64,000 nt of DNA from Eledone cirrhosa (Eukaryota): assembly GCA_964016885.1 (NCBI GenBank), contig OZ024747.1, positions 91,078,001 to 91,142,000 on the forward strand. The letters are read 5' to 3'. Below the pieces are notes generated by a model. The model was not told the DNA's origin. It worked only from the letters and a program-made list of their open reading frames with translations, and did no database searches. Position 1 is the stretch's first letter, and each line of letters begins with the position of its first letter. This document shows, in pieces, positions 7,496 through 35,971 of this stretch. The translations under genes were made by a program, and so were the position numbers.

Positions 7496-8323
7496 TTAAT
7501 GGGCCTACACACATTCTCTGGGTTTTGCTATTATTTGTTATTTTATTTTGCATTTTGTGTTGGATAACACACCTCCACCACTCAAACACCTATCTTAAAA
7601 GCCCAAGGGCCCATATGACGGGAAATCGCACATACTGACACCTTAACCCAAGTACCCAACCCTACACAGAGCCCCTTGGTGGCCCACATAGCGGTTGCTT
7701 GCACGCACAGATTTGGGGACTCAGATTCTCAATGGGACAACGGCACATACTGAGTTCGATATGAGCTGACAACTTGCTCTTCGCAGGGATATGTATATAC
7801 CTAAACATACACTTTTTTGGACGATACGGATGTGTATATACCATAACATACACTATTTGGAGATACGGATGTTACAATTCAATCTATACACGTATAGCAG
7901 ATCATTGAACTGAACTTACACGCGTGTGTATAGGGCTGCGGTTGACCCAATTTTTCAAATTTGCATCGTCAAATTGAGATTTGACCAATATAACATTTGT
8001 TGTTTTGTAAACTAACTTTCGGTGAATACTATGTTGGTATATTTGTATTTTTCTTTTTTCTTTAACCTCGTGTCGGTGTGTGTGAGTGTGTGTGTGTACT
8101 CACTCACAATAACTGTGACGGACTGTAATTCTACAGATTTGATTGATGTCCAGCGTCTTTTACAGCTACTGGGAGATAGAGACTTGATAGTTTTATGACC
8201 CTAACTGAGGACGATACCAGTCGCCGTGTTCTGACTGCTTGATCTTCAAATGAGGGACTAAACTCTGTGAGTGAACACCGTTAATTTTCTCCCTCATATC
8301 AAGGATTTGAAGACAATTCATTT

Positions 8324-34741: not shown

Positions 34742-35217
34742 ACATCAAGCTTGTTACATACACTTTCCGTACTCTTCCATGTCTCACGGGCATATATCGC
34801 TGTTGGTACTACAATGGACATGTAAACACGGAATCTGACGGCGTTGCCGATGGAACACCTGGACCATACCATCGTTGCATTCGGACCATATTGAAAATTT
34901 CATGGAGAGACCAAGTTAGCAACGAGGAAGTGATGAGGAGGTCAGGATTGGAGAGGTTAAGGGACATTGTCCGGAAAAGGAGACGGTGGTTCGCGGGCCA
35001 TATCGTTCGTTTGCCGGCAGATCGACCTGCTCATATTGCCATGGATTGGGTACCAGAAGGTGGCAGGAGAGTACGGGGAAGACTACAAAAAACATGGCGG
35101 ACCTGCGGGAGATGGGAATTACCTGAAAAGGTGCTAGGAGGGCCGCCAGTGACAGGATTAAGTGGAGAAAGCTCGTCGCCCAATGTTCAACAAGGGACTG
35201 AAGGAACTAAGACTAAG

Positions 35218-35221
<4 letters not shown>
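34742..35221 (+). mobile_element. RTE-clade LINE 3' end with 5' inversion, inside (TA)n
   Basis: Plus strand: [45 protein letters not shown] with tail CTAAGACTAAGTCTAA. Minus strand: [20 protein letters not shown]. Confidence 0.85.
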
Positions 35222-35283
<62 letters not shown>

Positions 35284-35295
35284 TGAACTCCTACG

Positions 35296-35880
35296 TATTC
35301 TGGAGCATGAAACCGCGGTAAAGGCACATATAGTAAGTACAGCGAATTTTTTAAAATTTATTAAAAAACTTTTTTGCTATTTGCTAGACTTTGATTTTAT
35401 ATGTTCTGGCTTGTTAATTTATTAACCCGCCAAAGAACCATATTGGCATACGGTTGGATAATACTTGTTTCCCTATATGTATTTTTTACACGTAGGATCT
35501 CCGACTTTATTATTATTGATCTCCCCCTAAAGTACAGATAAAATTTTGGCCGTTTGGACTGCTGCTATTTCTAGTGGCAGGACATTGACCTGTCTACCCT
35601 TCCTTTTGTCTTTGCACACGGCACCAGAAAGAATTATTTCTTTCATCATCCGCTCTCATTTGGGAATGGTTTTGTATGGCGTCAGTTTATGATTTGAACT
35701 CGGGAATTATATATTCTCCGAGGGAGAAGAGCCTTCTGAAGATTGGTCCTTTCTCAATGGAAATCCGCTTGGATTTTCTGTTTATTCTGGAGCATGAAAC
35801 CGCGGTAAAATCACATATAGTAAGTACAGCGAATTTTTTTTTATTTATTTCAAAACTTTTTCTCTATTTACTAGACCTTG

Positions 35881-35887
<7 letters not shown>
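35296..35887 (+). mobile_element. Non-coding HHR mini-element, 487-bp unit with about 100-bp terminal direct repeat, inside (TA)n
   Basis: TATTCTGGAGCATGAAACCGCGGTA...CTAGAC.TTGATTTTATAT at 35296-35402 and 35783-35888. Confidence 0.8.
35731..35812 (+). ncRNA. Hammerhead motif (35 kb family)
   Basis: GCCTT-CTGAAGA-TTG.TCC...GGAGCAT-GAAA-C-cgcg-G-TA. The 3' stem I strand is AAATC here but AAGGC (a perfect match) in the upstream repeat. Confidence 0.65.

Positions 35888-35971
<84 letters not shown>

What the first reader, a model, noticed from the sequence alone, without database searches (positions are those of the whole stretch)
35296..35887. 487-nt unit whose circularisation rebuilds a fully paired hammerhead stem I
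Seen: the insertion starts mid-ribozyme (stem II 3' strand, GAAAC-CGCG-GTA, AAGGC) and ends after a full ribozyme whose 3' stem I strand is mutated (AAATC). Joining 35807 to 35321 gives GCCTT-CTGAAGA...GTA|AAGGC, a complete 5-bp stem I. Both ends lie in (TA)n. Inference: this is a circularly permuted 1.2-mer cDNA copy of a small ORF-less ribozyme RNA.
Basis: partly seen in the sequence, partly recalled or inferred. Interest (0 to 1): 0.7.

Follow-up and report, generated by a model that had tools for sequence, protein, structure and literature searches.

The report
Decayed Penelope-type hammerhead retrozyme copy
This is one damaged copy of a 487-base non-coding repeat that carries a predicted self-cutting RNA fold and sits at hundreds of places in this animal genome, and the fixed ends of its copies show it was likely pasted in by Penelope-type jumping-gene enzymes, possibly from a circular RNA: a new family of a known kind of element.

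Summary
The sequence is as described: 107-nt repeats 487 nt apart, a half and a full hammerhead, (TA)n flanks. The headline is wrong. The AAATC stem I is a private mutation (1 of 48); sister copies carry an intact ribozyme in linear DNA, and stem II of this copy stays mismatched after joining. The family has hundreds of ORF-less copies and one 19.4-unit array. Ends are not freely permuted: 185 of 225 arms end at one of two sites 111 nt apart, and 40 of 41 two-armed insertions use one of each, the Penelope 'tail' footprint. Repeats within one insertion share alleles (361 of 372 vs 65% between), so one template haplotype made each insertion; cDNA ends show no excess at the cut site. That fits a circle or an uncut multimer; neither is shown. 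A young coding Penelope-like element here has the same ribozyme-to-end spacing (81 vs 82 nt) and is a candidate mobiliser. Verdict: new family of non-LTR retrozymes. The scan already reported this anatomy for other families in this genome.

The parts
35222..35280 (.). (TA)n target array, left side
35281..35296 (-).
   Evidence: Reverse complement matches the S2 end motif seen 109 times in fetched loci with one mismatch; S1+S2 inverted pairs are the family norm
35296..35889 (+). Sense arm, 594 nt = 1.22 units of 487 nt, 5'-truncated, ending at fixed end S1
35296..35325 (+). 3' half of a hammerhead (stem II 3' strand, GAAA, 1-bp stem III with palindromic loop, predicted cut after 35320, stem I 3' strand AAGGC)
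35403..35513 (+). Internal copy of the 111-nt 'tail' between ends S1 (35402) and S2 (35513)
35731..35812 (+). Full type I hammerhead fold with long stem II; damaged at 35746 (stem II) and 35810-35811 (stem I); predicted cut after 35807
35783..35889 (+). Second copy of the 107-nt repeat (pseudo-LTR-like redundancy); 35889 = end S1, 82 nt past the cut site
35885..35969 (.). (TA)n target array, right side

Best explanation
The locus is a mutated, 5'-truncated copy of a multi-copy 487-nt ORF-less hammerhead repeat (a non-LTR retrozyme) that was likely inserted by a Penelope-like reverse transcriptase/GIY-YIG protein acting in trans. Shown: hundreds of dispersed copies in (TA)n, two fixed 3' ends 111 nt apart, scattered 5' ends, inverted second arms that use the other end, and one haplotype per insertion. 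Inferred: the enzyme cuts both strands of a (TA)n tract, primes cDNA from each DNA end at two internal sites (S1, S2) of the same RNA, copies through the ribozyme cut site without stopping, drops off at about 0.003 per nt, and the two cDNAs are joined 5'-to-5'. Here that gave a 594-nt S1 arm and a 16-nt S2 arm, and later point mutations damaged the ribozyme. The template is inferred to be a ligated circle (about 50%) or an uncut multimer or jumped template (about 50%). This locus is predicted to be unable to release a monomer itself.
For: Copy number: 150 and 280 exact hits of two short patterns. Ends: 128 S1 + 57 S2 of 225 arms in 144 loci; two-armed insertions S1+S2 40, S2+S2 1, S1+S1 0 (P=2e-11 against 50:50); 154 of 185 such ends abut TA repeats. 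Allele concordance at six ancestral polymorphic sites: 174 of 179 direct, 187 of 193 inverted, 0.651 between insertions. 118 of 128 S1 arms cross the cut site; stops at the site 6 vs 5.0 expected. Ribozyme stems covary across three lineages: 8 of 14 pairs change on both sides. Sister family with homologous ends 105 nt apart. Coding Penelope-like element in the same genome with ends 81 and 143 nt past its own hammerhead. Literature: PMC11167929 (two internal RT starts define the tail, both strands extended), PMC8557442 (partial tandems, inverted copy, tail at one end), PMC7229834 and 10.64898/2026.07.22.740005 (retrozymes).
Against: No RNA, cleavage or circle data were obtained. No significant sequence homology between the family and the candidate coding element's 3' region (local score 32 vs shuffled 23+-3.7, max 39), so the mobiliser is unassigned. 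The tail is 111 nt, longer than the 30-40 nt in print. 40 of 225 arms end elsewhere. The 19.4-unit array shows secondary duplications, so long arrays need DNA-level expansion and are not evidence for rolling-circle copying. The stem III (1 bp) would need a dimer to cut.
Confidence: 0.85

Rival explanations
1. The unit is only the pseudo-LTR of a long coding Penelope-like element, and the copies are its 5'-truncated ends.
For: Same end anatomy as coding PLEs; 10,597 GIY-YIG candidates in the genome; 10 of 144 loci have a PLE-protein hit within the fetched stretch.
Against: 63 of 185 arms exceed one unit and continue into another copy of the unit, not an ORF. 54 of 80 one-orientation loci have a dinucleotide repeat directly upstream. 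In the 4 of those 10 loci read in full, the PLE is a separate insertion. A pattern for a short-stem version of this ribozyme found 0 hits. Only part of the family was sampled.
Confidence: 0.07
2. One reading: a circle made from this kind of locus, with freely permuted entry points, where circularisation itself restores the ribozyme.
For: Joining 35807 to 35321 does give a 5-bp stem I; cut-to-cut circles fold better than shuffles (z -2.0 for this copy, -2.6 to -4.8 for five others, 30 shuffles each).
Against: AAATC is private (1 of 48); 3' ends are fixed; neither cut site of this locus has a complete undamaged ribozyme in a linear transcript.
Confidence: 0.03
3. A satellite spread by DNA-level recombination, with the hammerhead as a passenger.
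For: One 19.4-unit array with shared-variant clusters among units.
Against: Dispersed copies have fixed 3' ends, random 5' ends, inversions with short junction overlaps (24 of 38 overlap by 1-13 nt) and a (TA)n target; the array itself has a truncated 5' end and an S1 3' end.
Confidence: 0.03
4. SINE-like element copied from ribozyme-cut linear monomers.
For: Small, non-coding, multi-copy; 6 arms stop within unit positions 22-30.
Against: A cut monomer offers only 82 nt upstream of S1, yet 118 of 128 S1 arms cross the cut site and stops there are not enriched (6 vs 5.0 expected). Efficient end-to-end template jumping could rescue this model.
Confidence: 0.02

Closest known systems
Metazoan non-LTR retrozymes (Cervera and de la Pena 2020, PMC7229834, parts 2-4 of 6 read; Li, Clavereau and Pollet 2026, 10.64898/2026.07.22.740005, parts 1-3 of 5 read)
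   Same: Small ORF-less low-GC (36-38%) unit with one type I hammerhead, dispersed monomers, partial tandems and an array; 1-bp stem III with palindromic tetraloop as in axolotl HHR_Amex1; co-occurs with PLEs.
   Different: 487 nt is above the 170-400 nt of the 2020 paper though inside the 51-972 bp of the preprint; stem II carries a long extension; expression, cleavage and circles untested; in the parts read neither paper describes two fixed ends or paired inverted arms.
EN+ Penelope-like elements and their pLTR/tail (Craig et al. 2021, PMC8557442, 12 passages read; Frangieh et al. 2024, PMC11167929, parts 1-3 of 4 read; Cervera and de la Pena 2014, PMC4209133, part 1 of 4 read)
   Same: 5' truncation, partial tandems, inverted 5'-truncated copy, tail at one end, two internal RT start sites, microsatellite targets, minimal dimer-type hammerhead upstream of the ends.
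   Different: No ORF; tail 111 nt against 30-40 nt; the two start sites are strictly paired across arms (40 of 41), whereas the in vitro study saw no strand difference in start site.
Non-autonomous Chlamys elements such as MRC1 (passage in PMC8557442)
   Same: Non-coding PLE dependants with pLTRs and head-to-tail multimers.
   Different: Those resemble autonomous families at the 3' end and their clade lacks canonical hammerheads; here a hammerhead is present and no homologous autonomous family was found.

Membership tests
Non-LTR retrozyme | Type I hammerhead core with three stems in each unit | tested here: met
   CTGAAGA in 47 of 48 instances; covariation in 8 of 14 pairs across three lineages, rows not independent; damaged in this copy
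Non-LTR retrozyme | Short constant unit in tandem or multimeric copies | tested here: met
   18 of 21 spacings 485-490; 19.4-unit array
Non-LTR retrozyme | No coding capacity | tested here: met
   Longest ATG ORF 44 aa (+) and 40 aa (-) in a real dimer
Non-LTR retrozyme | Two consecutive complete ribozymes at the locus ('active' criterion of the 2026 preprint) | tested here: not met
   This locus has one half and one damaged ribozyme; other loci of the family do have two
Non-LTR retrozyme | Self-cleavage of the transcript | not testable with these tools
   Needs in vitro transcription
Non-LTR retrozyme | Expression as linear and circular monomer RNA | not testable with these tools
   No RNA holder listed
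Penelope-like element (autonomous) | ORF with telomerase-like RT and GIY-YIG endonuclease | tested here: not met
   No ORF in the unit; no unit-to-ORF junction seen
Penelope-mobilised non-autonomous element | Two fixed 3' ends defining a tail, variable 5' ends | tested here: met
   185 of 225 arms at S1 or S2; 5' ends spread over all 25-nt bins
Penelope-mobilised non-autonomous element | Partial tandems and inverted 5'-truncated copies | tested here: met
   59 two-armed and 85 one-orientation clusters, 3 complex, in 144 loci
Penelope-mobilised non-autonomous element | Microsatellite target | tested here: met
   154 of 185 canonical ends abut TA repeats
Penelope-mobilised non-autonomous element | Sequence similarity to the pLTR of an autonomous partner | tested here: inconclusive
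   No significant alignment to 50 GIY-YIG loci; only spacing and short end motifs match one coding family

The most novel reading that the evidence does not exclude
One circular 487-nt ribozyme RNA is primed twice, at two fixed sites 111 nt apart, by a dimer of a Neptune-type Penelope protein that has cut both strands of a (TA)n tract, so each insertion is two cDNAs run round one circle. The mobiliser is the young RT + GIY-YIG family at G000:C1:145.87 Mb and C5:100.72 Mb, recognised through a shared ribozyme-to-start distance of 81-86 nt and not through sequence homology.
Probability: 0.3. Interest if true: 0.6.

Novelty: new member of a known kind. Interest (0 to 1): 0.33.

Why it matters
The single locus is an ordinary dead copy. 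The family is useful because it gives counted genomic evidence on a step that the papers read here propose but do not show: how retrozymes are reverse-transcribed and by what. Strict pairing of two start sites across arms, one haplotype per insertion and no stop at the ribozyme cut site make sharp predictions for an in vitro assay with a named candidate enzyme. Other families in this genome were already reported with the same anatomy by this scan and are younger, so they are better test material.

Tried and rejected
Rfam: 0 hits at gathering threshold. RNA evidence: no RNA holder listed; contigs of three runs of unknown kind from one sample show only family-wide variation and may be the source sample. 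No exact hit in metagenome contigs. Enrichment of 5' ends at the cut site: seen by eye in top hits, rejected by hazard analysis (6 vs 5.0 expected; 4 vs 2.8 in the least biased set of 83 loci). Stop after exactly one round: 3 vs 2.8 expected. A-to-G editing scars: none (A>G per A 0.0078 vs T>C per T 0.0084, P=0.5). Array as a one-shot rolling-circle product: weakened by shared-variant clusters, e.g. 11-14 shared among three adjacent units. Rod-like viroid fold: only 59-64% paired. Direct autonomous partner: blast against 50 GIY-YIG loci gave two weak hits, one of which was the sister family; short-stem pattern 0 hits; the start-site pattern gave 276 hits and the 100 listed all look like this family or its subfamilies (not fetched). 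A Pfam accession recalled from memory was not in the library. Six of twelve polymorphic sites were dropped for the final concordance count; with all twelve it was 214 of 232 and 219 of 243 on the earlier set. Locus L069 (nested, complex) was left out. Four pairs of loci share upstream flank sequence; not inspected further. Paper searches for a cephalopod or two-armed retrozyme description returned nothing beyond PMC8557442, PMC6765202 and a plant review; supplements were not read and may list such families.

Full report
1. Observation. The window lies at G000:C7:91078001-91142000 in a 3.0-Gb genome. A 107-nt direct repeat occupies 35296-35402 and 35783-35889, 90% identical and 487 nt apart, between (TA)n arrays. 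Rfam gives no hit.

2. The family. A DNA search gave 2,653 candidates, of which 40 were scored; best matches are 90-93% identical. Exact patterns of 23 and 26 nt occur 150 and 280 times, reversed controls 0, so the family has at least several hundred copies. I examined 144 distinct loci plus one array: 30 top hits and loci drawn from the first 100 listed places of each pattern. Segments differ by 3.7% from the per-site majority. Unit length is 485-490 in 18 of 21 spacings. The longest ATG ORF in a real dimer is 44 aa. One array of 19.4 units (9,448 bp, C1:176.44-176.45 Mb) is 5'-truncated, ends at the usual 3' end and sits in (TA)n; some units share many variants, so it was expanded at least partly at the DNA level.

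3. The ribozyme. In the 30 top loci the 3' strand of stem I is AAGGC in 38 of 48 instances and AAATC in 1, this copy; the 5' strand of stem II is TTGCTCC in 30 of 48 and TTGGTCC in 5. The family ribozyme is therefore intact in linear DNA, and 'circularisation rebuilds stem I' only reflects a mutation in one of two repeats. After the join, stem II is still mismatched (-5.4 vs -9.5 kcal/mol). A typical copy folds into the three-stem type I topology when the core is held unpaired (-22.7 kcal/mol), this copy does not. A subfamily with a different stem II and a sister family of 459-467 nt (287 of 519 columns identical, score 67 vs shuffled -97+-16) give compensatory changes in 8 of 14 pairs; the 12 rows stand for only three lineages. 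Stem III is one base pair plus a palindromic loop, the form that PMC4209133 and PMC7229834 describe as cutting in dimers. Cleavage is inferred, not shown.

4. Ends. Of 225 arms, 128 end at site S1 (unit position 107, 82 nt past the cut site), 57 at S2 (218-223) and 40 elsewhere; 154 of the 185 canonical ends abut TA repeats. 5' ends are spread over the whole unit. Among 59 insertions with two outward-facing arms, 41 have two canonical ends: 40 are S1+S2, 1 is S2+S2, none S1+S1. One-orientation insertions end at S1 in 69 of 85. The window's insertion belongs to the two-armed class: 35281-35296 is the reverse complement of the S2 end with one mismatch to the commonest form, too short for BLAST, which counted it as one-armed. 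The sister family has homologous ends 105 nt apart. This is the Penelope pattern: partial tandems, an inverted truncated copy and a tail at one end (PMC8557442, passages), with the tail lying between two internal RT start sites and both DNA strands extended (PMC11167929, parts 1-3).

5. Template. At six ancestral polymorphic sites, repeats inside one insertion agree in 174 of 179 comparisons (direct) and 187 of 193 (inverted arms), against 0.651 between insertions (with twelve sites 214 of 232 and 219 of 243; comparisons are not fully independent; L069 left out). Each insertion thus derives from one haplotype. 118 of 128 S1 arms run through the cut site, 63 of 185 arms exceed one unit, and termination is flat at about 0.003 per nt with no excess at the cut site (6 vs 5.0) or after one round (3 vs 2.8). 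A cut linear monomer is therefore not the main template unless the enzyme jumps end to end. A ligated circle, an uncut multimer from a homogeneous source locus and template jumps all remain. PMC11167929 reports unprocessed RNA as the dominant substrate in vitro for a coding PLE, which counts against needing a circle; PMC7229834 shows that retrozyme circles are abundant in other animals, which counts for one. I put the circle at about even odds.

6. Mobiliser. The genome holds 10,597 GIY-YIG candidates. One young family (copies 96-98% identical) has an open RT + GIY-YIG frame with a cysteine motif in the linker, which PMC8557442 gives as a mark of the Neptune and Nematis clades; the clade was not tested by a tree. 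Its 3' end holds a fixed U3-A8 hammerhead variant (26 of 29 identical; variant described in PMC4209133) and two ends in (TA)n, 81 and 143 nt past the cut site (15 and 47 ends). The first distance matches this family (82) and the sister (86), and the short end motifs are alike, but alignment shows no significant homology. It is a candidate only. No unit-to-ORF junction was seen: 10 of 144 loci have a PLE hit nearby and the 4 read in full are separate insertions.

7. Mechanism for this locus. Inferred: a Penelope-type protein cut a (TA)n tract behind an older LINE-like fragment, primed at S1 and copied 594 nt, primed at S2 and copied about 16 nt, and the two cDNAs were joined. Mutation then damaged stems I and II. 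The locus has one half and one damaged ribozyme and is predicted to be inert.

8. Novelty. Non-LTR retrozymes and their link to PLEs are in print (PMC7229834; 10.64898/2026.07.22.740005). My searches found no description of this family or of strictly paired arms; supplements were not read. The scan's index has no note on this sequence or place but several on other hammerhead families of this genome with the same two-armed anatomy; I had counted the pairing before looking. One note reports editing scars and cut-unit ends for a 467-nt family; neither was seen in this family. Verdict: new member of a known kind, interest 0.33.

Noticed in passing
L132:7010-7920 (G000:C5:100722009-100722919): Sister retrozyme family of 459-467 nt, homologous over the whole unit, with compensatory ribozyme stems and two ends 105 nt apart; 2,399 candidates. 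Probably the 467-nt family of note e1-8803865; identity not checked.
   Followed up: partly
L131:3809-6622 (-) and L132:3276-6775: Young coding Penelope-like family with a 938-aa open frame, a fixed U3-A8 hammerhead variant and a 62-nt tail.
   Followed up: partly
G000:C1:176443890-176453337 (L061, L062): 19.4-unit array of the family; units are more diverged from each other (10.6%) than dispersed copies (6.4%), unexplained.
   Followed up: partly
L262, L252, L214, L246, L269: Subfamily of the same unit with a different ribozyme (core CTGACGA, altered stem II, longer stem III loop).
   Followed up: partly
window 34743-35221: 3' fragment of a LINE-like element (RT C-terminal-like peptide, no Pfam hit; the RTE-type label is recalled) between two (TA)n arrays, ending in short repeats.
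   Followed up: no
window + 8382, - 18002, - 21834, + 50251: Other hammerhead-like cores (GAAAC...GT with CTGANGA upstream at two of them); three share a motif and look like decayed copies of another repeat.
   Followed up: no
window 35498-35503: Five clustered private changes just before the internal S2 site, unlike any of the other loci; possibly a templated micro-replacement.
   Followed up: no
window 35571-35582 and L132 about 7500-7511: A short block (TAGTGGCAG) is conserved between this family and its sister outside the ribozyme and ends; role unknown, perhaps a promoter element.
   Followed up: no
L133-L148 and flanks of family loci: Many further hammerhead families lie in the same (TA)n-rich neighbourhoods.
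   Followed up: no
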